From an uncultured Mageeibacillus sp. (GTDB taxonomy: Bacteria > Bacillota > Clostridia > Saccharofermentanales > DTU023), in assembly GCA_964345335.1 (NCBI GenBank), contig CAYFQU010000005.1, forward strand, positions 1 to 46,050: a DNA stretch of 46,050 nucleotides, written 5' to 3'. The first letter of the stretch is position 1, and the number at the start of each line of letters is the position of its first letter. This document shows, in pieces, positions 85-45,694 of this stretch. The notes beneath the pieces are model-generated. The model did not search any database and was not told where the DNA came from. It worked only from the letters and a program-made list of their open reading frames with translations. Both the position numbers and the translations under genes were made by a program.

Positions 85-1455
85 TTATTCATTCACAACC
101 GTTAAGATCAAATTTTTGACCATTGTATTGTCAACCTGAACGATCAGTTCCGTCTTTGCCCCTTGCGCTGCCGAGCTCTGAATAATATAATCGGCTTCCG
201 GCGAAAACGGATACTGACGATAAAAATCCGTCAAGTTCATGCCATAATAAATAGCATCATCTTGTCCATGAGGTCCGCCTAAAGCAATATCCTTTGAAAC
301 ATTGGTAATTTCCAGACGATCGATAACCCCTGCCCAAGTTTTTGTTTTAAAATCGGCTTCTCCTCTAATCAAAAATGAAATTTGCGGATAAGTGATCCTC
401 CAAAATTGAACCGTTTCATCGTTTTTATCTTTTAAATTTGTCTGGCTGACACGTGGTTTTCCCAGAATCGAATCAAACATAAAATTATAATAGGTTTGTC
501 TGATTCCGTTGCTCGACCAAGATAATAGGAATTGATCTTTATAATAAACATTCAAGTGATAATTTTTGATTGTCTGCGGATAAGGATCCGAAACGGTAAT
601 TTGATTATTTCTATATTTAAAAGTACAAGTACGTAGATTCTCCTGTACACTGTTCAGCGTGTCCAATTCCTGCAAAAATGAAATCTTATTGGGCAGGACA
701 GCTATCGGCACACTTTTCGTCGCTTCCGTCTTAATTTGCATACGATAGTAATCCATCAATAAATTTGCTTTGTTTTCTTCGATCGAGAGGATTTGATCAT
801 CAACCGGTTGCACATAACCCTGTGCTAAAAGCCAAGACAACATATCTACATCCCTTTGCTCAATGGCATCGAAATAGAGTTTCGCAAAGTTCGAAATTTC
901 ATTTGTCCTTTTCACCCATTCTTCTGCCAGATAAGGATGTCCGATGGCATCATGCTGAACGGCAATAATACTTTTGTGCGCAGAGCTGTTATCATTGAAT
1001 TCATATTGCAATTCATAAAATTCAGAATCTTCAGCCATCAGAGCTAAACTAGGTACATCAGTCGTAATCTCGAGTATATAGTCCTTTTTCTCAGCGCTTG
1101 TTAAGCGACGGAAAGCAACAATATGTGAATTGCTATGCTCCAGCATTTCCAGATATGTCGTGAAATCATGCAAGGAAAGATTTGTTTTCATTTCTGCCGG
1201 AATGGCATTATACACATCAATAACCGAGACATTATTATTGGCGATATCAACAAAGGCCGAAATCAAAGATACATCTGTAATCTGTCCGTTTTTATCTTTA
1301 TTAAGGAGATAATTTTGATCACTTTTATGCAATAAACTTTTTAAGGTCTTTTCTTCCTGATTCGGCATAACAAAGCAAGCAGTCATACTCAGCATCAATA
1401 GTGCACAGCTCAAAAAAAGTAAAATTGTTCTTTTTATATTTTTCGGCATTTTCAT
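85..1455 (-). CDS. Putative lipoprotein of unknown function
   Basis: 456-aa ORF whose N-terminus MKMPKNIKRTILLFLSCALLMLSMTAC has a positive n-region, a hydrophobic core and a lipobox-like MTAC. The start lies 5 nt after the sigH stop and is preceded by aaaggaa. I recognise no family motif. Confidence 0.5.
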   Translation of the reverse strand: MKMPKNIKRTILLFLSCALLMLSMTACFVMPNQEEKTLKSLLHKSDQNYLLNKDKNGQITDVSLISAFVDIANNNVSVIDVYNAIPAEMKTNLSLHDFTTYLEMLEHSNSHIVAFRRLTSAEKKDYILEITTDVPSLALMAEDSEFYELQYEFNDNSSAHKSIIAVQHDAIGHPYLAEEWVKRTNEISNFAKLYFDAIEQRDVDMLSWLLAQGYVQPVDDQILSIEENKANLLMDYYRMQIKTEATKSVPIAVLPNKISFLQELDTLNSVQENLRTCTFKYRNNQITVSDPYPQTIKNYHLNVYYKDQFLLSWSSNGIRQTYYNFMFDSILGKPRVSQTNLKDKNDETVQFWRITYPQISFLIRGEADFKTKTWAGVIDRLEITNVSKDIALGGPHGQDDAIYYGMNLTDFYRQYPFSPEADYIIQSSAAQGAKTELIVQVDNTMVKNLILTVVNE

Positions 1456-1460
1456 TTCCT

Positions 1461-2096
1461 TTAATGATTGTTTTGTCTGAAAGCCATAATTTTTTTACGT
1501 ATTCTTTGCAAAGCTCCGTCTATACTCTTATTGGAAACAGAGAGCAGCTCTGCCATTTCATTATACTTTCTTCCCTGCAAATATAAAGTCATCACTTGAT
1601 ATTCAAAGTCGCTGAGATTATTTTTTAAATAAAGATTTAATTGATGAATGCGTTCTTGATCAAGTAATTTACTTTCCGGATCAGCGATTTGTTCATCCGG
1701 AATCAAATCGATAAAACTTTCATCAGTAAAAGAAGCATCGGTATCAATTTTAAAGTCCAGAGAAAGGCTTTGATTCAAGGGTTCATGCTTACGCCGTGCC
1801 GCTTTACGAATCGCATCATATAAGCGAGATTCAACGACCTGAGCAGCAAATTTACCAAACGGCACATTTTTGCTTTTATCAAAAAGGGAAATTGCCTGAT
1901 ATAATCCGATCATTCCCTCTTGAATCAAATCTTCCTGATCGCCACCCTGAAGGAAATATTGCCTTGCTTTAACACTGACCATGCCTTTATATTTCATAAT
2001 CAAATGTTCAACGGCAAGCTCATCGCCTTTGCGGATTTGCTCGATATAATACTCATCTGTTTTAAATTGAGATGTATCGGATATGCTGTGAGACAT
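1461..2096 (-). CDS. sigH: RNA polymerase sigma factor SigH (sigma-70 family, group 3)
   Basis: 211 aa, collinear with B. subtilis SigH (..KARQYFLQGGDQEDLIQEGMIGLYQAI.., ..RRKHEPLNQSLSLD.., C-terminal SIDGALQRIRKK). It sits in the conserved cysS-mrnC-rlmB-sigH context. Confidence 0.85.
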   Translation of the reverse strand: MSHSISDTSQFKTDEYYIEQIRKGDELAVEHLIMKYKGMVSVKARQYFLQGGDQEDLIQEGMIGLYQAISLFDKSKNVPFGKFAAQVVESRLYDAIRKAARRKHEPLNQSLSLDFKIDTDASFTDESFIDLIPDEQIADPESKLLDQERIHQLNLYLKNNLSDFEYQVMTLYLQGRKYNEMAELLSVSNKSIDGALQRIRKKIMAFRQNNH

Positions 2097-4942: not shown

Positions 4943-5752
4943 TCAGGAAAAATCTCTTTCTGTTGCAACTGTAAAAGCCCTGATTCGGCAGTTTTTTTCA
5001 AGCAAAGATTCCGCTGCGGAAAGCAAAGTCATACCGCTTGTCACAATGTCGTCAAATAAAATGATCTCTTTATCTTGCAAAAAATCTTCCCCTTTGCTCT
5101 GCAAAATATCCTGATTCAAGCAAAAAGCATTTCTGAGATTTATTCGTCTCTCCTCACGATGTTTCGTTTCGCTCTGCCTTTTTGTATTTTTGACACGCAG
5201 CAGAAGATCCGGCAAATAATAAATATTTGCCAGTCGAGCGATTTTGGCAGCGATCAGATCAGATTGATTATAGCCTCTTTCCTTAAAGCGTTTCACTGAT
5301 AAAGGAATCGGACATAAAATGATATTTCCAGATATTTCTTGCCAAATTTTTTGCGTTAATAAAAAGACTAATTCCGCTAAATAATCAGCTAAATATGCTT
5401 TTTGATAAAATTTTAATTGCAGCAAAAGCCGATCAATTGGTTTTTCATAGGAAAAAACCGTCATAACAGGAAACGGCAAATCTGTCATTCCATGCCAGAC
5501 AAGAGGTCTGAGCAGAGGTAAATCAGTCAGACATGCAGAGCATAATCCAAGCCGCCTGGTCAGGCTTTCCGCTTCATCCTTTTTTTGTGAAAAAGCCAGA
5601 TTGCCAAGTTTAGTCTTACTTGCTTTTTGCACGAAGCTCTGTTGCAAGGGCAAACCACAAGCTATGCAGGTATTTCCGGCAAGAAAATTGAGCCAATCTG
5701 ACTTTTTGTTATGTATCAATTTCACTACGCTTCTATTTTTTAATGGAGGCAA
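4943..5752 (-). CDS. comFC: ComF family protein (ComFC-like phosphoribosyltransferase-fold competence protein)
   Basis: 269 aa with N-terminal Cys pairs (CIACG ... CSAC) and a C-terminal PRTase motif ([14 protein letters not shown]). The TTG start overlaps the metK 3' end by 20 nt, so the exact start is uncertain. No comFA is adjacent. Confidence 0.75.
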
Positions 5753-6961: not shown

Positions 6962-7092
6962 ATAAAAAAACCTCTCGACTGAGAGGTACTGTCACTCACT
7001 CATCTCTCAGGTAAACCTGACGGAATTGGCACCGTATTAACGGTTGCCGGGTTTCATTGGGCCGTTCCCTCCACCACTCTGGATAAGATATA
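6962..7092 (-). promoter_or_regulatory. SAM-I (S-box) riboswitch with intrinsic terminator, controlling metK
   Basis: The - strand reads cttatccagagtggtggagggaacggcccaatgaaacccggcaacc...ggtgccaattcc...gagagatgag, which matches the SAM-I core. It is followed by the hairpin cctctc-agtc-gagagg plus T7 (6962-6987). The 3' strand of P1 can alternatively pair with the 5' strand of the terminator. Confidence 0.92.
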
Positions 7093-7258: not shown

Positions 7259-8185
7259 ATGAAGAAAATATTATTGATTGATCCCAATATTTTATATGCC
7301 AAACGTGTAGAACAGAGTTTAAATCAACGCTTAAATCCATTAGCCTACATACGATCACAAACCAATTTTACGGATATCACCGACAAGACTGTACTCTATA
7401 TCGTGCATGAAAGCTTTGCAGAGTATTGGTCAAAAGAAGAAAGACCTCAAAAGATTATCTGGCTTAAAGAAAATCCGACCTGGGAAGAAGATACACGGAA
7501 CACTCTATTCCGTCAGAGCAAATTATCCGCTTGGCAGGCAAAAATTTTAGCACAAGTTGGAAACGAAGAGCCGGCAGATCATGACAAGTCAGAATTAACC
7601 CATGCCAAACTATATTTATTTTATGTATTCAATCAAGCTTATTATTTGAATTATTTTACGAAATTTATTCAGGAGCAAATGTATATAGGTAAAGACATCT
7701 TTTTATTACCGATAAAGCCTTTATATCAATGGTTTTATCAGGCAAAATTCAGTCAGGGAAGCACTTTATTCGAAATGCTTTTTCAGATTGAAAGGGGTAT
7801 TCCCCTTGACGGACAGGTGATCGGGCATATTTTCGAAAAGCAAAAAAGTGGTATCTATATTGCCCGTCCCGGTATACACAGTGAAGATATTCTGCAAATT
7901 GAACCAAAGGATTTATTATGCTTTATTCGTTTATTTCGGAATTTTATATCTACGCTCAGCGATACCGCCATCGGCATGATCGATTATCAAGGTTTATCTT
8001 TTGAACTATTAAAAAACATCGCCTTTCTCAGTGATGTTTGTCTGTTTGATGTGCCGGAAGAAAAATGTTTCGGAGCTAAAATCGGCAAAGAGTTAATTGC
8101 TGATTTTTTAGCAGAAAAACCTAATTCAACAAAATTTGTTCCATTGAGTTTAAAGAAAAACGAGGCAAAACATGTTAACGCATAA
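7259..8185 (+). CDS. Hypothetical protein, first gene of the Tad-like operon; sits in the TadZ/CpaE position but has no Walker A
   Basis: 308 aa with a good RBS (agagga). It overlaps the ATPase gene by 14 nt. The N-terminus MKKILLIDPN looks receiver-like. I see no GxxGxGK[ST] anywhere in the protein. Confidence 0.45.
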   Translation: MKKILLIDPNILYAKRVEQSLNQRLNPLAYIRSQTNFTDITDKTVLYIVHESFAEYWSKEERPQKIIWLKENPTWEEDTRNTLFRQSKLSAWQAKILAQVGNEEPADHDKSELTHAKLYLFYVFNQAYYLNYFTKFIQEQMYIGKDIFLLPIKPLYQWFYQAKFSQGSTLFEMLFQIERGIPLDGQVIGHIFEKQKSGIYIARPGIHSEDILQIEPKDLLCFIRLFRNFISTLSDTAIGMIDYQGLSFELLKNIAFLSDVCLFDVPEEKCFGAKIGKELIADFLAEKPNSTKFVPLSLKKNEAKHVNA

Positions 8186-9317
8186 ACAAAGACAAGAATA
8201 TATCGAACAACTTATTTCTAAAAATCAGGAAATAGATATTCTTAACGATCGAAAATTAATGCAGTTTCTCTCAAAAAAATTGGCGGAGAACCCTGATTTT
8301 TCAGAATTGAGTCTGTTGGACAGAAGAACTTTATTGACCCAATTGTTCAATACAATGCGAGGTTTGGATTTATTGCAACCATTGCTCAATGATGAAACCG
8401 TCACGGAAATCATGGTCAACGGTTATCAAGATATTTTTATTGAAAGATTTGGCAAAATTCATCGAGCAAATCTCAAATTTGACGATGTAAGTCATCTGAC
8501 TCATGTTATTACTAGATTTTTCGGCAAAGCCAATCGTTTAATCAATGAACAAAATCCGATTAATGGCATGCGTTTGGCAGACGGTTCGAGAATACATGCC
8601 GTTTTACCTCCTTCGGCCCCCGACGGTCCTGTTATGAGCATTCGGCGTTTTACAGGTATTCGCCCCGATATGAATGCGTTGCTGGAACATCAGACATTAA
8701 GCCAGGAAGCTGCCGATTTTTTAATTGAATGCGTGCATAACAAGAAAAATATATTTGTTTCAGGCGGAACCGGTACCGGCAAGACAACTTTTTTAAATGC
8801 TTTATCTTCTTATATCGGCGAAGATGAGCGCATTGTCACCATTGAGGATGCGGTTGAATTAGATTTACAGGGTATTCAAAACCTAGTCCGTCTGGAATCT
8901 CGCGAAGCTGGTCCTGACGGTTTAGGAGGGATTTCCTTAGAAGATTTGATCCGTTCTTCTCTGCGCTTAAGACCTGACCGAATTATCGTCGGAGAAATTC
9001 GAGGCAAGGAAGCATTTGAAATGATTCAAGCGATGAGTACAGGGCATCCGGGATCCATGTCAACCGGTCATGGCAATAACAGTCTAGAAATGCTGGATCG
9101 TATTTGTCTGATGATCCTCATGTCCTCCAGCTTGCCCTGGGAGGCTATTCGCAGATTAGTGGCATCTGCTCTGGATATTAATATTCATTTGAGCCGCCAA
9201 CCAAACGGTACCAGAGTAGTACAGGAAATTATCGAAATCCAAGGCTATGCTGATCAACAATTTGTGACAAAAACAATTTTTAAAAGAGTAGGAGAAAATT
9301 TAATATGGCAGCCGTAA
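8172..9317 (+). CDS. cpaF: CpaF/TadA-family type IV filament secretion ATPase
   Basis: 381 aa with Walker A VSGGTGTGKTT, Asp box ERIVTIEDAVEL, Walker B LRPDRIIVGEIRG, His box GHPGSMSTGHGN and the N-terminal TEIMVNG block. Confidence 0.88.
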   Translation: MLTHKQRQEYIEQLISKNQEIDILNDRKLMQFLSKKLAENPDFSELSLLDRRTLLTQLFNTMRGLDLLQPLLNDETVTEIMVNGYQDIFIERFGKIHRANLKFDDVSHLTHVITRFFGKANRLINEQNPINGMRLADGSRIHAVLPPSAPDGPVMSIRRFTGIRPDMNALLEHQTLSQEAADFLIECVHNKKNIFVSGGTGTGKTTFLNALSSYIGEDERIVTIEDAVELDLQGIQNLVRLESREAGPDGLGGISLEDLIRSSLRLRPDRIIVGEIRGKEAFEMIQAMSTGHPGSMSTGHGNNSLEMLDRICLMILMSSSLPWEAIRRLVASALDINIHLSRQPNGTRVVQEIIEIQGYADQQFVTKTIFKRVGENLIWQP

Positions 9318-10816
9318 AAACATTTTTTTCTAATCTTCTATTTTGCCTCATGTTTGTTTACTTAACCTATACAACCTGGTTGGATTTAGAAAATCTGGGC
9401 ATGCCGATCATCATTTTCTGCGGACTGTTAATCTGTTTTGGTTTCACAATTTATTTGAGAGGTAAACAAAACGCTGCAAAAATTGAACAGTATCGTATCT
9501 TATTGGAATATTTGAGCAGCCGTATCTCTGCCGGTCACACTTTGGAATCGTGCTTGTCTGAAGCCTATGCTCGTTTAAAGCATGAACTCGGCTTCAAAAG
9601 CACATTGGGAAAATGCTTAAAACAATTGGAACAAGCCATGCATGCACATTTAGATTTAGATCGCTGTCTGGAAATGTTAAAAAAGAATTTTCATTGTCAA
9701 ACCAGTGATGCCTTTTTTGATGTTTTACCCTATCTAAACCACTATGGCGGACGCTTGGACATCTTTATCAAGCAAACTTATAAAACGCTGAATGCAGAAA
9801 TTCAAATGCAAAAAGATATCGCCGCCGAACAAAATGCGCAGAAAAGTGAAGCCTTGATCTTGATTTTTTTACCGTTTCTTTTCTCTCTGATTTTGATCAG
9901 GCACGGTAGCTCCTATGCGCAGTCTTTAACGAATGTAGCCTGGAGCAAAATACTGTTGGCTGTTATTTTTGTCATTTCGCATCTTTCAATTTTTATCGCT
10001 TTATTAATTTGGGCACAGAATCCAGTACGAATAAATAATAAAGATATTTTTATTGAATTGAAAGATAAGGCTTGTCGAAGCCGTTTTGTAAAATATAGCG
10101 CGCAGTTTATTTTAAGTTATTTACCTTTAAAATTCGGTTATCATTTAGCGGACAGCGTACGTATTTTATCTCAAAACCAAACAGAATCGTGGCAGAAGTA
10201 TATACGGAAAAAAATAATACTCATCGTACTCTGCTTTCTTTTCACTGCTTGTTTATTTTCAATGCAGCTGATCAACTTGTCAGTTGCTCTGATTTGCATA
10301 ATTGGAATATGGTTTTTACCGGATTTTGATATTTTTTATCGTGAAAGTAAATTAAAAGAACAAATTCGTATTGAATACCCGACTTTTTTAAATTCGATGG
10401 TCATTTTATTGCGCAGTGGTTTGAGTTTGGATAGAAGTTTACGTTTAATGATTGATTCAGTACACGGGAAGGTAAATTCTCAACTCAAAAATGACTTATT
10501 AAAGATCAGGCATCATCTCAGTGTAGGTGACAGTGCCTCCTATGCAATCAGTTCAATTACAGATAATCTACCGCAGGAAGAAATTGCCTCTATTTTGCAA
10601 TTGATGACTCGCTATGATCGTGATGGTGGTAAAGAAATTTTAGATATTTTAGATATTCAGGCAAATGCCAGCTGGCAATTATATAGAAATGCGATGCGCA
10701 GACGTCTGCAAAGAAAAAATATGGGTTTATTGTTACCGATGACACTCGACTTGTTCATCGTGATTATCATGGCGATGCTGCCGGCTGTCGCCAGCTTAGC
10801 CGATATCACTCTATAA
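9305..10816 (+). CDS. Fused TadB-TadC-like platform protein (two T2SS-F-type repeats)
   Basis: 503 aa, polytopic. Two cytoplasmic helical modules (YRILLEYLSSRISAGHTLESCL.. and EYPTFLNSMVILLRSGLSLDRSL..) are each followed by TM segments. It overlaps the ATPase gene by 13 nt. Confidence 0.7.
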   Translation: MAAVKTFFSNLLFCLMFVYLTYTTWLDLENLGMPIIIFCGLLICFGFTIYLRGKQNAAKIEQYRILLEYLSSRISAGHTLESCLSEAYARLKHELGFKSTLGKCLKQLEQAMHAHLDLDRCLEMLKKNFHCQTSDAFFDVLPYLNHYGGRLDIFIKQTYKTLNAEIQMQKDIAAEQNAQKSEALILIFLPFLFSLILIRHGSSYAQSLTNVAWSKILLAVIFVISHLSIFIALLIWAQNPVRINNKDIFIELKDKACRSRFVKYSAQFILSYLPLKFGYHLADSVRILSQNQTESWQKYIRKKIILIVLCFLFTACLFSMQLINLSVALICIIGIWFLPDFDIFYRESKLKEQIRIEYPTFLNSMVILLRSGLSLDRSLRLMIDSVHGKVNSQLKNDLLKIRHHLSVGDSASYAISSITDNLPQEEIASILQLMTRYDRDGGKEILDILDIQANASWQLYRNAMRRRLQRKNMGLLLPMTLDLFIVIIMAMLPAVASLADITL

Positions 10817-10830
10817 TCAGAAAGGAAATT

Positions 10831-11022
10831 ATGATGGAAAAACAAAATGGGATCAAAAAGAAATTACAAGATAACAGCGGTTTAGGGACTTTGGAAATTG
10901 TCTTAATTATTGCCGTGCTCGTCGCAGTGGCCTTAATCTTCCGCACACAGTTGACGAGTTTTGCTAACAGTTTAATCGAAAAAGTTTTCGATTATTCAAT
11001 CATTGACAGTATTTCATATTGA
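10831..11022 (+). CDS. flp: Flp/Flp1-like type IVc prepilin
   Basis: 63 aa. A charged leader MMEKQNGIKKKLQDNSG is followed by LGTLEIVLIIAVLVAVALIF, so Gly then Glu at +5 after a predicted G|L cleavage. RBS aaagga. Confidence 0.7.
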   Translation: MMEKQNGIKKKLQDNSGLGTLEIVLIIAVLVAVALIFRTQLTSFANSLIEKVFDYSIIDSISY

Positions 11023-12122
11023 CGGTAGGAAACAAAATGCTTGATTTTTATAAAATAAAGGTTCAATTGAATGAAATGCAGAAGCTCGCACTTCTGCATT
11101 TTCAACAACAAAATATTCCGTTTAGCAAGCAAATCATTCTATATAGTGGCCCTGAGCAAGAACAGGAATATTTGTTATTAGAAAGGAGTGAAACAAACAG
11201 AATTTTATTGCATGTCATAGAGTATTTACAAGAAAAAAAGGCAGAGTGGCGATATCCTTCTTGTTTATGCCTTTTACACTCTCTGAATCAACAAATGCTT
11301 TTCCTTGAAGAGCATTTTTTAGCGGCCAATCTGAATTTACTGCAAACAGGACTGCTCGAGATAGATCAAACTTTCATAGAAAAGTTTTTAGAAGATCCGA
11401 TAAATTTATTGCGAGATGCAGATATTACAGTACATCATCAAATGTTGCATTGGTACATACTGCCACAGGAAGTGGATTTCAATTTAGACGAAATACTGCC
11501 AAGCCAAGAAAGTATTTGGCAAGGTTTAAGTCAATTAGATCCTTCTCATCATGAATTATATCAAATGCACGAACAATTCAACAAAGCCGGCAAATGGAAA
11601 GAAGCCGATCAACTTCTACTCCCTCATATTATGAAATTCAAAGAAAATATGCCTGATAAAACATTGCAACAACAAAATAGAAAGCCAAAAAGCAGAGCAA
11701 AGAAATCTATATTCTCATATTTCGCGAAAATTAAAAATCTAAAAACAGGTAAAAGTATTTATCAGGAAGAAAAAACAATACCTTTGAATCCTCAAGAGGA
11801 ACTGTTTCGCCTAGCAATGATTTCAGAAGGGATACCGGGTACCGTCGAAGAAAATGAAGGTTTAAGAGCTTTCATCTTAATCAATGAATTTCTAATTGGT
11901 CGAGATGGAAAAATCTGTGATTTATGCTTATCGGAAAAAACAGTGGGTAGAATTCATGCCAGAATTTCCAGACATGGATCTCATTATTTTATTGAAGATT
12001 TAGGTTCAGCCAACGGCACTTATTTAGACGGAAAAAAGCTCAACAAACATCAAACATATCTGTTGCCGGATTATTGTCGTTTGAAGTTTGCCGAGCTGGC
12101 TTTCTATTTTATCGTTGATTGA
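11019..12122 (+). CDS. FHA-domain protein with an unrecognised N-terminal region of about 270 aa
   Basis: The C-terminus carries FHA signatures (VGRIHARISRHGSHYFIEDLGSANGTYLDGKKL). The ORF-track start is a TTG overlapping the pilin stop. The ATG at 11037 (MLDFYK) has a better RBS (aggaaac) and is the likelier start. No TM segment is evident. Confidence 0.75.
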   Translation: MTVGNKMLDFYKIKVQLNEMQKLALLHFQQQNIPFSKQIILYSGPEQEQEYLLLERSETNRILLHVIEYLQEKKAEWRYPSCLCLLHSLNQQMLFLEEHFLAANLNLLQTGLLEIDQTFIEKFLEDPINLLRDADITVHHQMLHWYILPQEVDFNLDEILPSQESIWQGLSQLDPSHHELYQMHEQFNKAGKWKEADQLLLPHIMKFKENMPDKTLQQQNRKPKSRAKKSIFSYFAKIKNLKTGKSIYQEEKTIPLNPQEELFRLAMISEGIPGTVEENEGLRAFILINEFLIGRDGKICDLCLSEKTVGRIHARISRHGSHYFIEDLGSANGTYLDGKKLNKHQTYLLPDYCRLKFAELAFYFIVD

Positions 12123-20327: not shown

Positions 20328-21077
20328 TTATTGATAATCAACCACACCTACCCAAGATGCTAAGAATTCACGTTCTTCCTGATTACCCTTGACAGATTGG
20401 CTGGCTGCCACAATCGGCATCCATTTTTGTACATATTGTTTCGCCGTATCTGCTTTCTGACAGAAAAGGTTCAAATATTTTTCTGCCAATTCATCTTGTT
20501 TTTTCAGCTTAAACAGCAGATACGTTCTGGCCACATCTGCGGAAGCATTGCCGCGAGTTACATGGGACCAGTCCAGAATATAAGGCGTACCGTCTTTCGC
20601 AATAATCACATTGGACGGATTATAATCCCCATGACAAACTTTATCATGTCTTGGCATTGCCTCTAAGCGAGTATGCAGATCATAACGCGTTGTCGCATCG
20701 AAGCCGGAAGCGGAAATCTTACGATTCATTTTATCTTTTAATTTATTGAGCATCGGCGCCGTTTGAGCATGAATGGTCAATTGTAGATCAACAAACAACT
20801 CTAAATATTCATCTTCTTTTTCCGGGTTTTCATCAAATAGCTCTTGTAAATTTTTACCTTCGATATATTCCATGATAATCACGGCTCCCTGATCATTCAT
20901 CTCAACACCCATAATTTGGGGAATATGTAAATCAGTTTCTTCGACACGTGCAATATTTAATGCTTCATTCAAAATATCCGCTTTGGAAAAGCTTTTATCA
21001 AAAGTTTTATATACTTTTCCGTCCCGTTCATAAATTTTCTTATTTTTTCTTTCTGCAATTAAATGTTCAGATTTCAT
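20328..21077 (-). CDS. Aminoglycoside/choline-kinase-fold phosphotransferase family protein
   Basis: 249 aa with the Brenner motif HGDYNPSN, then ILDWS, and an N-terminal kinase-lobe Lys (KVYKTF). Its RBS taggagg overlaps the adhE stop codon. Confidence 0.65.
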   Translation of the reverse strand: MKSEHLIAERKNKKIYERDGKVYKTFDKSFSKADILNEALNIARVEETDLHIPQIMGVEMNDQGAVIIMEYIEGKNLQELFDENPEKEDEYLELFVDLQLTIHAQTAPMLNKLKDKMNRKISASGFDATTRYDLHTRLEAMPRHDKVCHGDYNPSNVIIAKDGTPYILDWSHVTRGNASADVARTYLLFKLKKQDELAEKYLNLFCQKADTAKQYVQKWMPIVAASQSVKGNQEEREFLASWVGVVDYQ

Positions 21078-32332: not shown

Positions 32333-33931
32333 TTATTTGGCGGGACCTTTTTCCAAATATCTTTTACCGAAATATAGTCCTAAAAAGCCCAGAGCAAAAT
32401 TGATCAATAAAATGATACCGAGTAAAAGATAAAAGATCATCGGATTATTTTTCATCTGAAAACTCGCAATCACCATTAAAATGACGGTCGGAGCGACAAA
32501 GGCCATACTCGTGAAAAATAAAAACATCGTCGACAACCAATTTTCAATTTCACCTAAAATACGAAACACCAAAATCTGGGCAGAATTGATTAACAGCAAT
32601 AGGCTGAATGATAATAAAAGACCTAAACCTAAAACGCCGATCGAAAAGCCTTCAAAAATCGTTACAAACAAATAAGCCGGTAAAAGATCTGCCAAGCGCA
32701 AAACAATACTCAAAATGCTGGCGAAAAAAACTTTCTTCAAAGGATTGCCGGGTAACAGAAAAAATTGCCAATCGTTAAACGCGTCAAGCGTGGAAGATGA
32801 AAAGGCCATAAAGTAGAGCAGCACGGCACTGACCGTCCAATAAATCAGAGGTCCCGGCCCTCCTCCATTCGTGATGTTCCCAATGACGGCAATCCCTCCT
32901 AATACAACCAAAACAGTAATCATTGCACCACCAAAGAAATAGGGTCTGGTTCTTCTGTACTCGCGCCACTGCTTATAAAAGACAGTAGACTCTCCGGAAC
33001 CTTTATTGATCCCTATATCCCTGATTTTATATTTGCTGTAAGCCTTTCTTTTAGCTGCTTCCACAGCTTCCTTATCGCCTTTGCCATTTGGCAATTCCTG
33101 GGACATCGTCAGGGCATCTTCATAATAATCGATATTCGAATGATAAACCTGATACATCAAAAGTGTCGGAACGAGAAAGAAGCAAAGTAAAGCAAGCAGT
33201 CTATGTATGGAAAAACCTAGATATAGTAAATCAAGCAGCCCTTTGCCCCATCCGGAAACAGGCACCAAATACAGAAGATTACTCTGCAGGAAACCACTAA
33301 AGGCCTCCTTTAAATCATGCTTTTGCAAATAAAGATAAACAAAAATAAGTACCGGAATAATCAAAACAAGATAACTGATTACAGTAACAATTTTCTTACG
33401 AGCAGGATTGCCCACACAAAATGAATAAGCAAAGGTTGAAATAATCTGATTGATAAAAATCGTTAAAATCCACAAAATAAACAATGTGATGATATCTCGA
33501 TGATCGACACCTAGTCTGCGTAAATTCGGAATTTGATAGAGCAAAAAGAAAGAACTCAAAATCGAAGCTTTTAATTGATTGGTCATACCAAATAAAAGGA
33601 CAGTAGCCGGATGATAAGGTGCGGTAAACAAAAATTGTGTATCGGGTAAAGTAAAAATATTGATCCCTGTCTTAGTACCTGTGTTCCAGGAAATAGCACT
33701 GATAATGGTAACCAGAATCATCATACCCACCGACAGGATAAGTTGAGGAGCTTTCGCTAAACCTTCCATGCGAAAACCTTCTGAAACGGCTTCACCTGAC
33801 CCGGTTCCTATAATCAAAAGGCTGAAAAAACCTAGATAGAAAACAATTCCTATTAATTTTTTCGGATCCTCTTTATATTGCTTAATACTGTTAATCAAAG
33901 AACGATATTTCAAGTAAAACAAGGCATTCAT
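32333..33931 (-). CDS. Putative ABC exporter permease (multi-pass membrane protein)
   Basis: 532 aa with about 12 hydrophobic segments and an ATGA overlap with the upstream ABC ATPase gene. Confidence 0.6.
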   Translation of the reverse strand: MNALFYLKYRSLINSIKQYKEDPKKLIGIVFYLGFFSLLIIGTGSGEAVSEGFRMEGLAKAPQLILSVGMMILVTIISAISWNTGTKTGINIFTLPDTQFLFTAPYHPATVLLFGMTNQLKASILSSFFLLYQIPNLRRLGVDHRDIITLFILWILTIFINQIISTFAYSFCVGNPARKKIVTVISYLVLIIPVLIFVYLYLQKHDLKEAFSGFLQSNLLYLVPVSGWGKGLLDLLYLGFSIHRLLALLCFFLVPTLLMYQVYHSNIDYYEDALTMSQELPNGKGDKEAVEAAKRKAYSKYKIRDIGINKGSGESTVFYKQWREYRRTRPYFFGGAMITVLVVLGGIAVIGNITNGGGPGPLIYWTVSAVLLYFMAFSSSTLDAFNDWQFFLLPGNPLKKVFFASILSIVLRLADLLPAYLFVTIFEGFSIGVLGLGLLLSFSLLLLINSAQILVFRILGEIENWLSTMFLFFTSMAFVAPTVILMVIASFQMKNNPMIFYLLLGIILLINFALGFLGLYFGKRYLEKGPAK

Positions 33932-34683
33932 TGGCTTACCTCTTCATGTATGCTTTCTGCCTGACGACCCATCTCTGATTGATCCGTTTTTTCCGTAACA
34001 TCAAAGAAGAAATCTTCCAAGCTTTTGCCTAAACCAGCCAATTCCGTACGATCACCTTGGGCTATCAATCTGCCTTCTTCCAGGATAAATACCTTGTCCC
34101 ATAATTCATCAACCGTATCCAGAATATGGGTGCTGATCAAAAGCGAACGCCCTTCTTCCACCAGTTCATGAAATATTTGTTTTAATTCTTTAATAGCATG
34201 GGGATCTAAACCGATTAAGGGTTCGTCAAGAATCAAAAACTCCGGTTCCGGCAGTAAAGCTAAACAAATACTTAATTTCTGCTGCATTCCTTTGGATAAA
34301 GTTCCGCCCAATTTATCTTTTTTATCTGCCAGTTCAAAACGCTTTAACAGTTGTTCAGCTCTGGCATGCCAATCGTCTGACAATTTATAGACTCTGGCAA
34401 TAAATTCCAAATGCTCGGCAATTGTCAGCAAAGGATAGAGATGCGGCATTTCCGGCACATAGCCTAATACCCTTTTGGCATCACTTGATTTATTGGGATA
34501 ACCGTGGATTGTGATGTCTCCCTCATAGCGCAGTAAACCGGTAATGCATTTAATCAGAGTTGACTTGCCCGCTCCGTTCGGTCCGACTAAAAGAGCGACC
34601 GATTTTTCCGGAATATAAAGATTGATATTTTGATTGGCAAGTACTTTGCCATATCTTTTCGTCACATTTTGAATATTTAACAT
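33928..34683 (-). CDS. ABC transporter ATP-binding protein
   Basis: Walker A GPNGAGKSTL, signature LSKGMQQKL and Walker B FLILDEP. I placed the start at the ATG at 34683 (MLNIQNVTKRYG). The 91 extra codons in the ORF track run inside the P-type ATPase gene and are not coding. Confidence 0.88.
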   Translation of the reverse strand: MLNIQNVTKRYGKVLANQNINLYIPEKSVALLVGPNGAGKSTLIKCITGLLRYEGDITIHGYPNKSSDAKRVLGYVPEMPHLYPLLTIAEHLEFIARVYKLSDDWHARAEQLLKRFELADKKDKLGGTLSKGMQQKLSICLALLPEPEFLILDEPLIGLDPHAIKELKQIFHELVEEGRSLLISTHILDTVDELWDKVFILEEGRLIAQGDRTELAGLGKSLEDFFFDVTEKTDQSEMGRQAESIHEEVSQ

Positions 34684-34697
34684 AACTACCCATTTTA

Positions 34698-37142
34698 CTA
34701 TATAAGTTGATATTTTTTTACAATATATTGACTGATTTTCAAAAACAGTACTGTGAGTAATAAAGCAATGCCACAATAGACAATTGTATACATTAAAATG
34801 CCGCCGCTGAGTTGTTCCAAAAAGAAAATCCCAGGAAAAATCGTAAAAGCAAGCAAAACCAGCACAAAAGAAAAAAGCCAGATCGATGCAGTATGCCGAT
34901 TGAAAGGCTTGCAAACCCGCCATAGAATCAACAGACTGATGCTTAATAAAATACAAAGCGTAATTGTGCTGCGGTACATTTTAGGAATATGAAATACCGG
35001 CATGGTGAGATATTGCAGAAAAACCATCAGGGTGGCAACCAATCCTGCAGGCAAAGAAACTTGCATCGTTTTCGGTAAAAATTTGCCTTTCACCCGGTTT
35101 TGATTGGGCAGCAAAGCCAAGAAAAATCCCGGTATGCCAATCGTACCGGAGCTGATCAAAGTCATCTGTATGGGGAACAGAGGGAAAGGATCTTTTAAGA
35201 ATAAAAAGACAATACTCAGCAGAACGACATAGACAGTTTTGGTTAAAAATAAAATAGCCGTTCTTTCAATATTATTGATAATTCTTCTCCCCTCATAGAC
35301 AGTCGGGATCATTTCCGAAAGATTATTATTTAAAAGCACTAAATCGGAACTGATTTTCGCAACATTACTACCTTCAGCCATAGCAATACTACAGTCGGCA
35401 ATTTTCATGGCCGGTACATCATTGATCCCGTCACCCGTCATGCCGACAATATGGTTTTTCTTCTGCAAGGTCGAAATAATTTCTTTTTTCTGAAAAGGCG
35501 TCACCCTGCCGAAGAATTGATATTCATCGACAATCTGCTCATAGGGGATAGGTTCTTGTTCCTGGCTTAAATCAATGGTTTTGCCCAAATCAGAAATATT
35601 CGCTTTATTGGCAATCGTCTGCACTGTCACCGGATTATCTCCGGAAATAATTTTCAATTTAACATCCTGCTTGGAAAAATAATCAAAAGTTTCCTTGGCC
35701 TGTTCCCGGATCGTATCGCTGAGCTCAATGATACATTGTAAAGTCAGATTCTCCGGAATAATCGTGTCCTGCTCCAAATCGGAAGGAGCATAAGCAACGG
35801 CTAAAAGACGAATTCCCTGTTTTGCTCTGCGGGACAAATAATCCTGTTGCTTTTCCAACTCCTCGTTTGCTAAGAGTATCTCCGGAGCACCGAAAAGCCA
35901 TAATCCGGCTTTTTCAAAAAATACGCCAGACCATTTCTTTTCAGAAGAAAAAGAATAAAGCCGCTTGATTTTATCCTGCGTTTGTTGTTTAGGAATTCCA
36001 TGAGTTGCCAAATAGGCTAAAATTGCCTGTGCTGTTTTATTCTGATCGTCCAAAGCAAGAAGTCCCCGTTCAACAGCTTCCAAAATTTGCTCTTCCGACT
36101 TCGTAAAAAATTCAATATCTTCAACCTGCATATCCCCGGTGGTAATCGTACCGGTTTTATCCAGGCATAACACGTCAATGCGGGCCAGAGTTTCAATCGT
36201 GCTCATTCTTTGGACTAAAATATTATTTTTTGCTAAAGCGATCACACCGATGAAAAAAGCAGCTGAATTTAATAAAACCAGCCCTTCCGGAATCATACCG
36301 ACCAGAGCAGCTACGGTCGATGTCAAAATCTCTGCCAGAGGATCCGCATCGGCCTGTAGAACTTTACTCAAAATCATGGCTGTCCCGATCACGAAAATCA
36401 GCAGACCCAGATATTTAGAAATTTTGTCCAAGGCATTTTTGATTTCCGAATTCGGTTTGCGAATAATATGTGCTTCTTTGGAAATTTGAGCGGCATAGGT
36501 ATCATTTCCTACTTTTGTCACGAAAGCCAGCGCATTGCCGCTCGTTACATTGCTCCCGGAATAGAGTATGTCGCCTTCTTTTTTTTCGATAAAATCCGAC
36601 TCACCGGTTAATAAAGATTCATCAACCCGGAAATTAGCACCGCTCAAAAAAACAGCGTCAACCGGAATTTGATCTTCATAATGTAACTCCAATAAATCGC
36701 CCAGTACGATATCTTTAATATCTATTTTTTTCTTCTGACCGTCACGAATGGCGGTTATATCCATTTGATTGATAATGGAGAGGCGCAGCATTTCTTTGCG
36801 AGCTTTGGTTTCCTGAATAATACCGCCGATTGTATTGACGATCGCAACTCCAAAAAAGAAACCGTTGACAAGATATCTGAGATGATGTGTCAGCGAAACA
36901 TAGACAATCACCAAAAACAAAAAAAGATTGAGCATATTAAAAGGTGTGAGAATATGCTCTGCCATAATTTTGCCGATCGATTTCGGTTTATTGACCGAAT
37001 CATGATTGCCATACCCTAGCTTTTGACGACGCAGAGCTTCTGCTTCACTCAAACCCTCCGGTCCTGTTTGCTCAAAATCCGGACGATCATCCTGTTTCCT
37101 TTTCTGCCTTATAGGGTTCAATTTTGTTAATTTTTTCCACAT
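34698..37142 (-). CDS. Cation-translocating P-type ATPase (type II-like, PEGL motif)
   Basis: 814 aa with TGES, the phosphorylation site DKTGTIT, MIPEGL in TM4 and the hinge MTGDGINDVPAMK. Confidence 0.88.
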   Translation of the reverse strand: MWKKLTKLNPIRQKRKQDDRPDFEQTGPEGLSEAEALRRQKLGYGNHDSVNKPKSIGKIMAEHILTPFNMLNLFLFLVIVYVSLTHHLRYLVNGFFFGVAIVNTIGGIIQETKARKEMLRLSIINQMDITAIRDGQKKKIDIKDIVLGDLLELHYEDQIPVDAVFLSGANFRVDESLLTGESDFIEKKEGDILYSGSNVTSGNALAFVTKVGNDTYAAQISKEAHIIRKPNSEIKNALDKISKYLGLLIFVIGTAMILSKVLQADADPLAEILTSTVAALVGMIPEGLVLLNSAAFFIGVIALAKNNILVQRMSTIETLARIDVLCLDKTGTITTGDMQVEDIEFFTKSEEQILEAVERGLLALDDQNKTAQAILAYLATHGIPKQQTQDKIKRLYSFSSEKKWSGVFFEKAGLWLFGAPEILLANEELEKQQDYLSRRAKQGIRLLAVAYAPSDLEQDTIIPENLTLQCIIELSDTIREQAKETFDYFSKQDVKLKIISGDNPVTVQTIANKANISDLGKTIDLSQEQEPIPYEQIVDEYQFFGRVTPFQKKEIISTLQKKNHIVGMTGDGINDVPAMKIADCSIAMAEGSNVAKISSDLVLLNNNLSEMIPTVYEGRRIINNIERTAILFLTKTVYVVLLSIVFLFLKDPFPLFPIQMTLISSGTIGIPGFFLALLPNQNRVKGKFLPKTMQVSLPAGLVATLMVFLQYLTMPVFHIPKMYRSTITLCILLSISLLILWRVCKPFNRHTASIWLFSFVLVLLAFTIFPGIFFLEQLSGGILMYTIVYCGIALLLTVLFLKISQYIVKKYQLI

Positions 37143-43714: not shown

Positions 43715-44095
43715 TTATTTAATTTCTACTTCAGCACCAGCTTCTGTTAACTTAGCAGCAGCTGCATCTGCTTCTTCTTTTGAAACATTTTCTTTAACAG
43801 CTTTAGGAGCTTCATCAACAACTGCTTTGGCTTCTTTTAAGCCTAAGCCTGTTAACTCACGCACAACTTTGATAACAGCAATTTTGGAAGAACCAGCTGA
43901 TTTTAACATAACAGTAAATTCTGTTTGTTCTTCTTCTGCAGCAGCAGCGCCACCGGCACCACCTGCGCTGACAGTCATCATAGCGGCAGCAGATACGCCG
44001 AATTCTTCTTCGATTAATTTTACTAAATCATTTAATTCAATAACACTTAAAGATTTAACATCTTCTAAGATCTGTGTAATTTTTTCGTTAGCCAT
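43715..44095 (-). CDS. rplL: 50S ribosomal protein L7/L12
   Basis: The sequence [26 protein letters not shown]... is canonical. I placed the start at the ATG at 44095, 7 nt after ggagga. The ORF-track start at 44110 includes the RBS. Confidence 0.95.
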
Positions 44096-44152
44096 GTAAA
44101 TTTCCTCCATACATATAACTAATTATGGCTTTATGCCTCGGATTATTTCCGT

Positions 44153-45683: not shown

Positions 45684-45694
45684 GTTTAACTCCT

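What the first reader, a model, noticed from the sequence alone, without database searches (positions are those of the whole stretch)
7259..12122. Minimal five-gene Tad/Flp-type pilus-like operon with non-canonical accessory genes, embedded in housekeeping DNA
Seen in sequence: five + strand genes are packed with 13-14-nt overlaps or gaps of 14 nt or less. In order they are a 308-aa unknown protein, a CpaF/TadA ATPase, a 503-aa double T2SS-F-like membrane protein, a 63-aa Flp1-like prepilin and a 367-aa FHA-domain protein. The block lies between the divergent SAM-riboswitch/metK unit and the convergent upp gene, and by eye it looks more AT-rich than its neighbours. Established knowledge: Tad (type IVc) machines need the TadA ATPase, the TadB/TadC platform, TadZ, Flp pilin, the TadV prepilin peptidase and TadE/TadF pseudopilins. 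Here the peptidase and pseudopilins are missing from the locus. The TadZ slot is filled by a protein without a P-loop, and an FHA protein is added. Inference: this is either a stripped-down, phospho-signal-controlled type IVc filament system of a kind that is poorly described in Gram-positives, or a decaying locus.
Basis: partly seen in the sequence, partly recalled or inferred. Interest (0 to 1): 0.72.

Follow-up and report, generated by a model that had tools for sequence, protein, structure and literature searches.

The report
Streamlined five-gene Tad pilus operon
A five-gene operon kept intact in a little-studied group of anaerobic Clostridia encodes a stripped-down Tad-type (type IVc) pilus machine, so it is a working new variant of a known system and not a decaying relic.

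Summary
Five tightly packed + strand genes lie at 7259-12122 between the SAM-riboswitch/metK unit and upp.

- **Gene 1** has no sequence family, but its model matches TadZ of Eubacterium rectale (3FKQ). None of 107 family clusters has a Walker A motif.
- **Gene 2** is a CpaF/TadA ATPase: about 250 bits to CpaF against about 120 to FlaI and VirB11.
- **Gene 3** is a fusion of TadB (N-half) and TadC (C-half).
- **Gene 4** is a Flp-like prepilin with a (G/A)|(F/L)GTLE site.
- **Gene 5** has a confidently folded N-domain that is possibly kinase-like, a disordered linker with an invariant Thr-x-x-L/I, and an FHA domain with a nearly canonical phosphothreonine pocket.

The same five genes, in the same order, occur in 35 of 42 species-level Saccharofermentanales genomes; the other 7 are cut by contig ends. 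They usually sit in the same chromosomal slot, which argues for vertical inheritance and against decay.

No prepilin peptidase, minor pilin, kinase or phosphatase is linked in any locus. The peptidase must act in trans, and I could not check this genome-wide. Phospho-control is inferred, not shown. The AT-richness is marginal and GC3 equals the flanks.

Verdict: a new variant of a known kind, of moderate interest.

The parts
7259..8185 (+). Gene 1: a TadZ-like scaffold (308 aa). It has an N-terminal atypical receiver-like domain (about residues 1-104, nt 7259-7570) and a MinD/ParA-like domain without a P-loop (about residues 113-308, nt 7595-8182).
   Evidence: The AF2 model has pLDDT 72. The top Foldseek hit is 3FKQ, E. 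rectale TadZ, at E 1e-8, followed by ParA/MinD/Wzc/NifH. No Pfam, NCBIfam or PDB sequence hit was found. The family has 107 clusters and none has a Walker A motif.
7619..7645 (+). The position equivalent to the Walker A/P-loop in gene 1 ('FYVFNQAYY'). It has no Gly, no Lys and no Ser/Thr.
   Evidence: Alignment of 107 family members. In the model, strand 118-122 is followed by helix 126-142.
7703..7726 (+). Family signature 'LLPIKPLY' of the gene 1 family (consensus YLP-L/I-M/K-P-T/L-Y).
8172..9317 (+). Gene 2: a CpaF/TadA-type assembly ATPase (381 aa) with no N-terminal disordered or FHA extension. Intact motifs: Walker A at 8763-8789, Asp box at 8832-8861, Walker B at 8979-9005 and His box at 9039-9077.
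   Evidence: Pfam T2SSE at E 2e-48. CpaF structures score about 250 bits, against GspE2 124, FlaI 120 and VirB11 119. The plasmid tblastn ranking is CpaF, then TrbB, then VirB11.
9305..10816 (+). Gene 3: a fused TadB-TadC platform (503 aa). The N-half (9305-10069) resembles TadB and the C-half (10070-10813) resembles TadC.
   Evidence: Pfam T2SSF in two stretches. Half-profiles give N-half scores of 33/22/36 bits for TadB against 8/5/10 for TadC. C-half scores are 60/38/33/32 bits for TadC against 8/7/28/10 for TadB. The protein is 503-560 aa in all loci.
10831..11022 (+). Gene 4: a Flp-like prepilin (63 aa). The predicted cleavage is after Gly17 (site motif at nt 10876-10902), giving a 46-aa mature pilin with Glu at +5.
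   Evidence: Pfam Flp1_like at 58 bits. The motif (G/A)|(F/L/V/I)GT(L/I/V)E is conserved in all loci, and each locus has exactly one pilin-like ORF.
11037..12122 (+). Gene 5: a cytoplasmic adaptor/regulator (361 aa). [quoted passage not shown]
   Evidence: Pfam FHA at E 2e-17. In the AF2 model the N-domain has pLDDT 85-97 and the linker is below 50. The Foldseek top hits are almost all protein kinases but weak, at E 0.03-0.2. Distant orthologues carry DUF6382+FHA.
11766..11786 (+). The 'EEKTIPL' motif. It has an invariant Thr (T247) with L/I at +3 and usually an acidic residue at -2, and lies in the disordered linker about 40 residues before the FHA Gly-Arg. It is a candidate phospho-acceptor and self-ligand.
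   Evidence: Thr is present in 73/73 distinct family sequences, L/I at +3 in 73/73, and E/D at -2 in 59/73. The segment has pLDDT below 50.
11895..12020 (+). FHA phosphothreonine-pocket residues: the Arg of Gly-Arg (11895-11906), 'VGRIHA' (11943-11960, where the canonical Ser is Gly here) and 'GSANGT' (12003-12020).
   Evidence: Arg 73/73; Ser position G 61 / S 12; following Arg 73/73; His 72/73; Asn 73/73. The alignment to solved FHA domains shows Ser aligned to Gly.

Best explanation
This is a functional, vertically inherited, streamlined Tad (type IVc) filament-assembly module of monoderm Clostridia of the order Saccharofermentanales.

**Proposed mechanism.**
1. The 63-aa Flp-like prepilin inserts into the membrane. 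It is cut after Gly17 by an A24-type prepilin peptidase encoded elsewhere in the genome.
2. A hexameric CpaF/TadA ATPase (gene 2) docks on the fused TadB-TadC platform (gene 3) and drives the 46-aa pilins into a thin filament through the Gram-positive wall.
3. Gene 1 is a TadZ homologue that keeps the atypical-receiver plus MinD-like fold but cannot bind ATP. It acts as a passive scaffold or localisation factor for the motor.
4. Gene 5 is a cytoplasmic adaptor. Its folded N-domain, possibly a catalytically dead kinase-like fold, docks on the machine. Its FHA domain reads a phosphothreonine.
5. That phosphothreonine is either on a partner or on the protein's own invariant Thr247-x-x-L motif, as in the GarA/OdhI self-binding switch. 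This would couple filament assembly to a Hanks-type Ser/Thr kinase and phosphatase encoded elsewhere.

**Shown.** The component identities, the fusion order, the family-wide loss of the P-loop, and the conservation of the module and its chromosomal slot.

**Inferred.** That a filament is made, that the peptidase acts in trans, the scaffold role of gene 1, and the phospho-switch.
For: **Component identities.**
- The ATPase scores about 250 bits to CpaF structures, against about 120 to archaeal GspE2, FlaI and VirB11. It is 47-40% identical to annotated CpaF proteins and ranks above TrbB and VirB11.
- Its Walker A, Asp box, Walker B and His box are intact.
- The platform halves match TadB (N-half) and TadC (C-half) from four canonical loci.
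- The pilin passes the Pfam Flp1_like cut-off and has a conserved class-III signal peptide with Glu at +5.
- The gene 1 model's best PDB match is E. rectale TadZ (3FKQ) at E 1e-8, followed by ParA/MinD-type ATPases. None of 107 family members has a Walker A motif.

**Conservation.**
- The five-gene order and strand are conserved in 35 of 42 species-level genomes; the other 7 are truncated by contig ends.
- The same is true of all 12 metagenomic or MAG neighbourhoods inspected.
- The module usually sits between metK and upp or the atp operon.
- GC3 equals that of the flanks.
- Every gene has a ribosome-binding site, and the genes overlap in a way that suggests translational coupling.

**FHA switch.** The FHA pocket residues are invariant except for Ser/Gly alternation, and an invariant T-x-x-L/I lies in the disordered linker.

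**Precedents.**
- tadV lies outside the Tad cluster in bifidobacteria (PMC13091076).
- FHA is fused to CpaF in class III orthologues and in Myxococcus KilF (PMC12019362 and PMC8460266).
- DUF6382-FHA proteins are components of the Clostridial T7SSe/f variants (PMC11217815).
Against: - No prepilin peptidase, minor pilins (TadE/F/G) or CpaB were found in the 46-kb window or within 8-10 kb of the module in about 55 loci. An essential processing step is therefore unaccounted for here.
- No Ser/Thr kinase or PPM phosphatase is linked.
- The canonical phosphate-binding Ser of the FHA domain is Gly in 61 of 73 members.
- The TadZ assignment rests on a moderate-confidence model (pLDDT 72, TM about 0.4) with no sequence-level support.
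- The kinase-like reading of the gene 5 N-domain is weak: Foldseek E is at least 0.03, and there is no profile hit to the PDB or to DUF6382.
- There are no expression or filament data. All carriers I found are uncultured MAGs.
Confidence: 0.75

Rival explanations
1. The machinery is the same, but the filament is a short pseudopilus used for DNA uptake (competence) or protein export, not an adhesive pilus.
For: - The locus has only one pilin and no minor or tip pilins, resembling minimal Com-type machines (PMC10191384).
- Tad systems are needed for DNA uptake in Micrococcus and Liberibacter, according to the titles and abstracts of PMC8467076 and PMC8513845.
- A ComFC-like phosphoribosyltransferase and a RecD2/YrrC helicase are recurrent upstream neighbours beyond metK.
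Against: - Those neighbours are on the opposite strand and separated from the module by metK. They are part of a housekeeping synteny block.
- No ComEA/ComEC-type genes were seen next to the module.
- Nothing in the sequence distinguishes an adhesive role from an uptake role.
Confidence: 0.18
2. Gene 5 is a phospho-independent structural component. Its FHA and kinase-like domains would simply bridge machine parts, as the EssC FHA domains and the EssB pseudokinase do in T7SSb, so no Ser/Thr-phosphorylation switch would exist.
For: - The canonical Ser is Gly in 61 of 73 members.
- No kinase or phosphatase is linked.
- T7SSb provides a precedent for a phospho-independent contact between an FHA domain and a pseudokinase (PMC11217815).
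- Pfam also scores the domain as the YscD-type FHA fold, which has a structural role in T3SS.
Against: - The Arg of Gly-Arg, the Arg after the Ser position, the His, the Ser-x-Asn and the Asn are invariant in 72-73 of 73 members.
- 12 members keep the canonical Ser.
- An invariant Thr with L/I at +3 sits in a disordered linker. That is hard to explain without a ligand or phospho-site role.
Confidence: 0.3
3. The block is a decaying relic of a canonical tad locus that has lost its peptidase, minor pilins and the TadZ ATPase activity.
For: Components regarded as essential in canonical Tad systems are absent from the locus. TadZ has lost its P-loop.
Against: - The same five intact genes are conserved in order in 35 of 42 species-level genomes, with gene 1 down to about 20% identity.
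- The ATPase motifs are intact.
- Motifs are strongly conserved in gene 1, the pilin and the FHA protein.
- The loss of the P-loop is family-wide and comes with a new conserved signature.
Confidence: 0.03
4. The block is not a Tad system. It would instead be a VirB11/TrbB-type conjugation module, or an archaeal-type pilus or archaellum-like system with an ancestral unsplit platform.
For: NCBIfam gives sub-threshold hits to the VirB11, TrbB and FlaI models. A single two-domain platform is the archaeal state (PMC6668835).
Against: - CpaF scores twice as high as FlaI, GspE2 and VirB11.
- There is no VirB4, coupling protein or relaxase in the window or among the recurrent flanking gene families.
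- The platform's N-half resembles TadB and its C-half TadC. This is the bacterial tadB-tadC gene order and the reverse of the archaeal arrangement reported by Denise et al., so the single platform is a secondary fusion.
Confidence: 0.03

Closest known systems
Canonical Tad / type IVc pilus (Aggregatibacter tad, Caulobacter cpa; also the monoderm Arthrobacter plasmid locus L054)
   Same: It shares the CpaF/TadA ATPase, TadB- and TadC-type platform domains, a small Flp-type pilin with Glu at +5, and a TadZ-fold protein encoded just upstream of the ATPase.
   Different: - TadB and TadC are fused into one protein.
- The TadZ-like protein has no Walker A.
- The locus has no TadE/F/G minor pilins, no CpaB and no peptidase.
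- A gene for an FHA protein is added.
- The pilin lacks the Tyr at +6 of the G/XXXXEY motif.
TadZ of Eubacterium rectale (PDB 3FKQ; Xu et al. 2012, as cited in PMC6668835)
   Same: It has the same two-domain architecture, a receiver-like domain plus a MinD/ParA-like domain, and is the best structural match. It occupies the same position before the ATPase gene.
   Different: TadZ has an atypical Walker A and binds ATP (PMC6668835). The gene 1 family has no P-loop in any of 107 members, and no sequence-level similarity is detectable.
Bifidobacterium Tad (T4cP) loci
   Same: It is a chromosomal, vertically inherited Tad system in a monoderm, and its prepilin peptidase gene lies outside the cluster or is absent (PMC13091076).
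   Different: Bifidobacteria keep tadZ, separate tadB and tadC, and tadE/tadF. They have no FHA protein.
FHA-associated Tad systems: class III CpaF (N-terminal FHA) and the Myxococcus Kil system (FHA-KilF plus FHA proteins)
   Same: An FHA domain is coupled to a CpaF-type motor, which suggests control by Ser/Thr phosphorylation (PMC12019362; PMC8460266).
   Different: Here the FHA domain is on a separate 361-aa protein with its own folded N-domain, in a monoderm. The ATPase itself has the minimal class I architecture.
TseJ/TsfJ (DUF6382 + FHA) of the Bacillota type VII secretion variants T7SSe/f
   Same: The cytoplasmic domain architecture is the same, a DUF6382-type N-domain plus a C-terminal FHA domain, and it is likewise encoded inside a secretion-machine gene cluster of Clostridia-type Bacillota (PMC11217815). 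Distant orthologues of gene 5 hit DUF6382.
   Different: Here it is associated with a Tad-type machine, not a T7SS. The window protein's own N-domain does not reach the DUF6382 model. No direct comparison with TseJ sequences was made.
GarA/OdhI-type FHA switches of Actinobacteria
   Same: An FHA domain is preceded at about 40 residues by a conserved Thr in a flexible segment that could bind back on the pocket. This parallel rests on my own knowledge of GarA/OdhI. The NCBIfam OdhI model gives a weak FHA hit, and GarA is a weak PDB hit.
   Different: Homology does not extend beyond the FHA fold. The target here would be a pilus machine, not a metabolic enzyme. Phosphorylation has not been shown.

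Membership tests
Tad / type IVc pilus system | A CpaF/TadA-clade assembly ATPase | tested here: met
   CpaF structures score about 250 bits, against 119-124 for GspE2, FlaI and VirB11. It is 40-47% identical to annotated CpaF proteins. The catalytic motifs are intact. It falls below the NCBIfam equivalog cut-offs.
Tad / type IVc pilus system | TadB and TadC platform proteins, each with one T2SSF domain | tested here: met
   Both domains are present and can be assigned: the N-half to TadB and the C-half to TadC. They are fused in one 503-aa protein, which departs from the canonical split.
Tad / type IVc pilus system | A small Flp-type prepilin with the G/XXXXEY processing motif | tested here: inconclusive
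   Pfam Flp1_like is passed, but Flp_Fap is not (15.6 bits against a cut-off of 32.2). Gly or Ala at -1 and Glu at +5 are conserved. Position +6 is V/I/M, not Tyr.
Tad / type IVc pilus system | TadZ: a ParA/MinD-family protein with an atypical Walker A that binds ATP, plus an atypical receiver domain | tested here: not met
   The fold matches TadZ 3FKQ, but Walker A is absent in all 107 family members. There is no sequence-level match to TadZ/CpaE from three canonical loci.
Tad / type IVc pilus system | A TadV/CpaA A24 prepilin peptidase | tested here: not met
   None was found in the 46-kb window or in about 55 loci with 8-10 kb flanks. This was tested by motif scan and by phmmer with Ralstonia CpaA and the Bacillus A24-like protein. 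The rest of the genome cannot be tested with these tools. Peptidases acting in trans are known.
Tad / type IVc pilus system | TadE/TadF (and TadG) minor pilins | tested here: not met
   No homologue of TadE/TadG from three loci or of the Bacillus DUF4320 protein was found. Each locus has only one ORF with a class-III signal peptide.
FHA domain (PF00498) | Passes the Pfam gathering score | tested here: met
   63.8 bits against a cut-off of 20.7.
FHA domain (PF00498) | Canonical phosphothreonine-binding residues: the Arg of Gly-Arg, the Ser and His of Ser-x-x-His, and Asn-Gly | tested here: inconclusive
   Arg, His and Asn are invariant. The Ser is Gly in the window protein and in 61 of 73 members, and Ser in 12.
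DUF6382 (PF19909) + FHA proteins (TseJ/TsfJ-like) | The N-terminal domain matches PF19909 | tested here: not met
   The window protein and its 17 closest relatives do not hit DUF6382 even at E<=1. All 21 more distant orthologues from the same operon position do. hhalign of the N-domains gives E 0.26. A MAFFT alignment shows a shared core and an invariant Pro.
Protein kinase-like fold (pseudokinase) | Structural match to kinase domains, and presence of the catalytic HRD and DFG Asp residues | tested here: inconclusive
   About 45 of the top 50 Foldseek hits are kinase domains, but E is 0.03-0.2. The profile finds no hit in the PDB. No HRD or DFG Asp equivalents appear in the conserved 'LLKPNLxLL' and 'WLxLP' stretches, so if the fold is kinase-like it is catalytically dead.
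VirB11/TrbB conjugative T4SS ATPase module | ATPase closest to VirB11/TrbB, with VirB4, a coupling protein and a relaxase nearby | tested here: not met
   VirB11 and TrbB score lower than CpaF. No T4SS genes are in the window or among the recurrent flanking families.

The most novel reading that the evidence does not exclude
The five genes are a self-sufficient minimal type IV filament machine that needs neither minor pilins nor a dedicated Tad peptidase. Its output would be gated by a pseudokinase-FHA adaptor (the DUF6382-FHA family) that Clostridia also plug into type VII secretion variants. That would make the adaptor a portable phosphothreonine-reading switch shared between two unrelated envelope machines. 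In this reading the P-loop-less TadZ acts as a nucleotide-independent assembly hub.
Probability: 0.15. Interest if true: 0.75.

Novelty: new variant of a known kind. Interest (0 to 1): 0.45.

Why it matters
Tad (type IVc) pili are important for adhesion and colonisation, but they have been studied almost only in diderms and bifidobacteria. This module shows how far the system can be pared down in a monoderm: one pilin, one motor, one fused platform, a TadZ that has given up ATP binding, and an FHA adaptor.

It offers three concrete test cases:
- whether TadZ's scaffold role is independent of nucleotide binding;
- whether a covalent TadB-TadC platform works as the split pair is assumed to;
- how Ser/Thr phosphorylation might gate pilus assembly through a DUF6382-FHA-type adaptor, a protein family so far reported only in T7SS variants.

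It also assigns a role to a gene family that currently has no annotation: about 107 clusters with no Pfam or NCBIfam model.

Tried and rejected
- **Sequence profile of the gene 1 family against the PDB.** No meaningful hit. Only the structure comparison linked it to TadZ.
- **hhalign of the gene 5 family against DUF6382-FHA proteins.** Only the FHA domain aligned. N-domain against N-domain gave E 0.26. The profile of the combined N-domains found nothing in the PDB.
- **The kinase-like idea.** It is kept only as tentative.
- **Literature.** There were no papers for 'Flp1-like' or PF16982. DUF6382 appears only in the T7SS-variants paper. The TadZ structure paper (PMC3272108) is not held, so the identification of 3FKQ as the published E. 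rectale TadZ rests on the matching organism in the PDB title, the citation in PMC6668835 and my own recollection.
- **Foreign origin or AT-rich island.** Rejected on GC3 and conserved synteny.
- **Promoter and terminator scan.** Not above shuffled expectation. No operon terminator was found, and upp ends 13 nt downstream.
- **Peptidase, kinase or phosphatase in the flanks.** Recurrent neighbours are metK, an RlmL-like gene, upp, the atp operon, threonine aldolase, a ComFC-like gene and RecD2.
- **Archaeal-type unsplit platform.** Rejected by the TadB-then-TadC order of the halves.
- **L037.** It looked incomplete, but a 10-N scaffold gap had broken the ORF call.

Full report
**1. Observation**

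The junctions are a 14-nt overlap, a 13-nt overlap and a 14-nt gap.

Gene 5 more likely starts at ATG 11037 (361 aa). That codon has an AGGA ribosome-binding site and the TTG at 11019 has none. The catalogued protein P0011 (361 aa) also has this start.

Pfam confirms the following:
- T2SSE at E 2e-48;
- two T2SSF stretches;
- Flp1_like at 58 bits against a cut-off of 33.5;
- FHA at E 2e-17;
- nothing for gene 1.

The flanks are housekeeping genes:
- Upstream: a sigH-like sigma factor, rlmB, mini-RNase III, cysS, a ComFC-like phosphoribosyltransferase, and metK with a SAM riboswitch at 6997-7089.
- Downstream: upp, an RlmL-like methyltransferase and tRNA-Arg.

The 'AT-rich by eye' remark is marginal. 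GC is 0.367 against 0.385 for the window, and 8.7% of equal-sized windows are as low or lower. GC3 is 0.357 against 0.355.

**2. Is it a relic?**

No.
- Gene 1 homologues (33-70% identical) and gene 5 homologues lie on the same contigs.
- Six neighbourhoods of gene 1 homologues show the same five genes in the same order, next to upp and downstream of metK.
- More distant relatives, in which the last gene is annotated DUF6382+FHA, have the same five-gene layout.
- A scan of one genome per GTDB species with the FHA-protein profile returned 42 loci. All come from Saccharofermentanales-type Clostridia: Mageeibacillus, Saccharofermentans, Fastidiosipila and unnamed 'Clostridiaceae'/Oscillospiraceae MAGs.
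- Local HMM scoring found all five genes, co-oriented and in order, in 34 of these loci. A 35th (L037) was interrupted only by a scaffold gap. The other 7 are cut by contig ends.
- The only recurrent neighbours are metK (29 of 40 loci), the RlmL-like gene, upp, the atp operon, threonine aldolase, a ComFC-like gene and RecD2.

The module is therefore an old, vertically inherited part of the core chromosome of this order.

**3. The parts**

*ATPase.* Caulobacter CpaF structures score about 250 bits (E about 4e-73). Archaeal GspE2 scores 124, FlaI 120 and VirB11 119. In annotated plasmids the ranking is CpaF (47-40% identity), then TadA, TrbB and VirB11. Walker A, Asp box, Walker B and His box are intact. 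At 381 aa it has the minimal 'class I' CpaF architecture described in PMC12019362.

*Platform.* I built separate profiles for the two halves of the family. I scored them against TadB/TadC pairs taken from annotated loci of Arthrobacter, Sulfitobacter, Ralstonia and Bacillus thuringiensis.
- The N-half prefers TadB: 33, 22 and 36 bits, against 8, 5 and 10 for TadC.
- The C-half prefers TadC: 60, 38, 33 and 32 bits, against 8, 7, 28 and 10 for TadB.

Denise et al. report that in archaeal two-domain platforms TadC aligns with the N-domain and TadB with the C-domain (PMC6668835). The order here is the bacterial tadB-tadC gene order. The single gene is therefore a secondary fusion, not an ancestral unsplit platform.

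*Pilin.* There is one pilin per locus, with the invariant motif (G/A)|(F/L/V/I)-G-T-(L/I/V)-E followed by a hydrophobic helix. Cleavage after Gly17 would leave a 46-aa pilin with Glu at +5. The Tyr at +6 of the classical Flp motif is absent.

*Gene 1.* The AF2 model has pLDDT 72. It shows a receiver-like alpha/beta domain followed by a second alpha/beta domain.
- Its best PDB match is 3FKQ, the E. rectale two-domain protein, at E 1e-8. Next come ParA, MinD, Wzc and NifH-type P-loop proteins.
- 3FKQ is, to my knowledge, the TadZ structure of Xu et al. 2012, which is cited in PMC6668835.
- An exhaustive profile search found only 107 clusters at 50% identity among 1.84 billion representatives.
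- None of them has a Walker A. The P-loop position reads 'FNQ', 'FDR', 'SST' and similar, and a new signature YLP-L/I-M/K-P-T/L-Y follows.
- At the end of strand 3 of the receiver-like domain, the invariant residues are His and Ser, not the phospho-acceptor Asp.

Gene 1 is thus a TadZ-fold protein that has lost nucleotide binding across the whole family.

*Gene 5.* Residues 1-205 fold confidently (pLDDT 85-97). Residues 208-258 are disordered and Lys-rich. The FHA domain is C-terminal.
- Foldseek gives no hit at E <= 1e-3. About 45 of the top 50 hits are protein-kinase domains, including pseudokinases, at E 0.03-0.2.
- The conserved stretch 'LLKPNLxLL ... WLxLP' resembles a catalytic loop without the Asp residues.
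- Sequence-level tests fail. I therefore treat 'dead kinase-like fold' as tentative.
- Pfam DUF6382 is hit by all 21 distant orthologues, but by none of the window's subclade.

In 73 distinct family sequences the FHA pocket is nearly canonical:
- the Arg of Gly-Arg is present in 73/73;
- the Arg after the Ser position in 73/73;
- His in 72/73;
- Asn in 73/73;
- the Ser itself alternates between Gly (61) and Ser (12).

An invariant Thr (T247) with L/I at +3 (73/73) and usually an acidic residue at -2 sits in the disordered linker, about 40 residues upstream of the Gly-Arg.

**4. What is missing**

- No ORF in the window or in about 55 loci matches Ralstonia CpaA or the Bacillus Tad-locus A24-like protein.
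- None matches TadE, TadG, DUF4320, CpaB or P-loop TadZ/CpaE.
- A GxGDxK multi-TM motif scan and a class-III signal-peptide scan found nothing beyond the single pilin.
- No kinase or phosphatase is linked.

The pilin clearly carries a prepilin-peptidase site, so a peptidase must act in trans. This is known for bifidobacterial Tad (PMC13091076) and for MSH pili (PMC6668835). I could not scan whole genomes of the carriers.

**5. Mechanism**

The best-supported reading is a streamlined Tad filament machine.
1. The pilin is processed by a peptidase acting in trans.
2. It is polymerised by CpaF on the fused TadBC platform.
3. A nucleotide-independent TadZ-like scaffold accompanies the motor.
4. A cytoplasmic adaptor carries an FHA domain that reads a phosphothreonine, either on a partner or on its own T247-x-x-L motif. 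The self-binding version is an analogy to GarA/OdhI drawn from my own knowledge.

Couplings of FHA domains to Tad motors are known in fused form: class III CpaF and Myxococcus KilF. DUF6382-FHA proteins have been described as components of the Clostridial T7SSe/f variants. The phospho-independent contact between the EssB pseudokinase and the EssC FHA domains is a structural alternative (PMC11217815).

Whether the filament serves adhesion, DNA uptake or export cannot be told from the sequence.

**6. Novelty**

I found no description of this five-gene module, of the P-loop-less TadZ family or of a fused TadBC in the searchable literature. Every part nevertheless belongs to a known kind of system. 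The module is a new variant of the Tad/type IVc family, confined as far as I could see to one order of mostly uncultured Clostridia.

Interest is moderate. It is informative for specialists in type IV filaments and yields testable hypotheses, but it is not categorically new.

Noticed in passing
window 4943-5752 (-); also L003, L035, L059: A ComFC-like phosphoribosyltransferase lies just downstream of metK on the minus strand. As listed, its ORF overlaps the metK 3' end by 20 nt, so the true start is probably further in. In several related genomes a RecD2/YrrC helicase sits in the same block. This is a possible, untested hint of a link between DNA uptake and the neighbouring pilus operon.
   Followed up: partly
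window 85-1455 (-), downstream of the sigH-like sigma factor gene at 1461-2096 (-): A 456-aa protein with no Pfam hit is conserved at the same position after the sigma factor gene in related genomes (a 455-477 aa gene with no Pfam in L001, L002 and L006, and an end-truncated 458-aa one in L003). Its function is unknown.
   Followed up: no
window 10788-10817 (+): The best sigma-70-like match of the region (TCGCCA-18-TATAAT, 10 of 12) lies inside the 3' end of the platform gene, just upstream of the pilin gene. It might be an internal promoter that boosts pilin expression. The scan as a whole was not above shuffled expectation.
   Followed up: no
window 20328-21077 (-): A small 249-aa protein has weak APH, RIO1 and Pkinase-like hits, suggesting an atypical kinase, about 8 kb from the operon. 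It was not among the recurrent neighbours of the module in other genomes.
   Followed up: partly
window 33928-34956 (-) and 34698-37142 (-): As listed, the ABC ATPase ORF overlaps the P-type ATPase ORF by about 260 nt. The TTG start of the ABC gene is probably called too far upstream.
   Followed up: no
window 43715-46030 (-), with the L10 leader at 44790-44946 (-): A string of minus-strand ORFs (111, 230, 207 and 131 aa), probably ribosomal-protein genes of the rplK-rplA-rplJ-rplL type, with an Rfam L10 leader before the 207-aa ORF. I did not run these ORFs through Pfam. Together with the sigH-like/cysS block, this would mark the window as core chromosome.
   Followed up: no
L057 (Bacillus thuringiensis plasmid poh1) 7001-13980: This Bacillus megaplasmid carries a Tad-like locus with CpaB, a P-loop TadZ-like ATPase, a CpaF/VirB11 protein and two unannotated TadB/TadC-like genes. 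It also has three tandem 67-aa pilin-like genes and an unannotated A24-like membrane protein with an 'SPGDTK' motif. The locus is largely annotated as 'hypothetical'.
   Followed up: partly
L007, L009, L011 and others (ATPase genes): ATPases of the more distant five-gene modules carry precomputed hits, mostly weak, to the new Pfam family PF27713 (UCP018868). The window's ATPase showed no such hit among the 25 of its 30 Pfam matches that were displayed.
   Followed up: no
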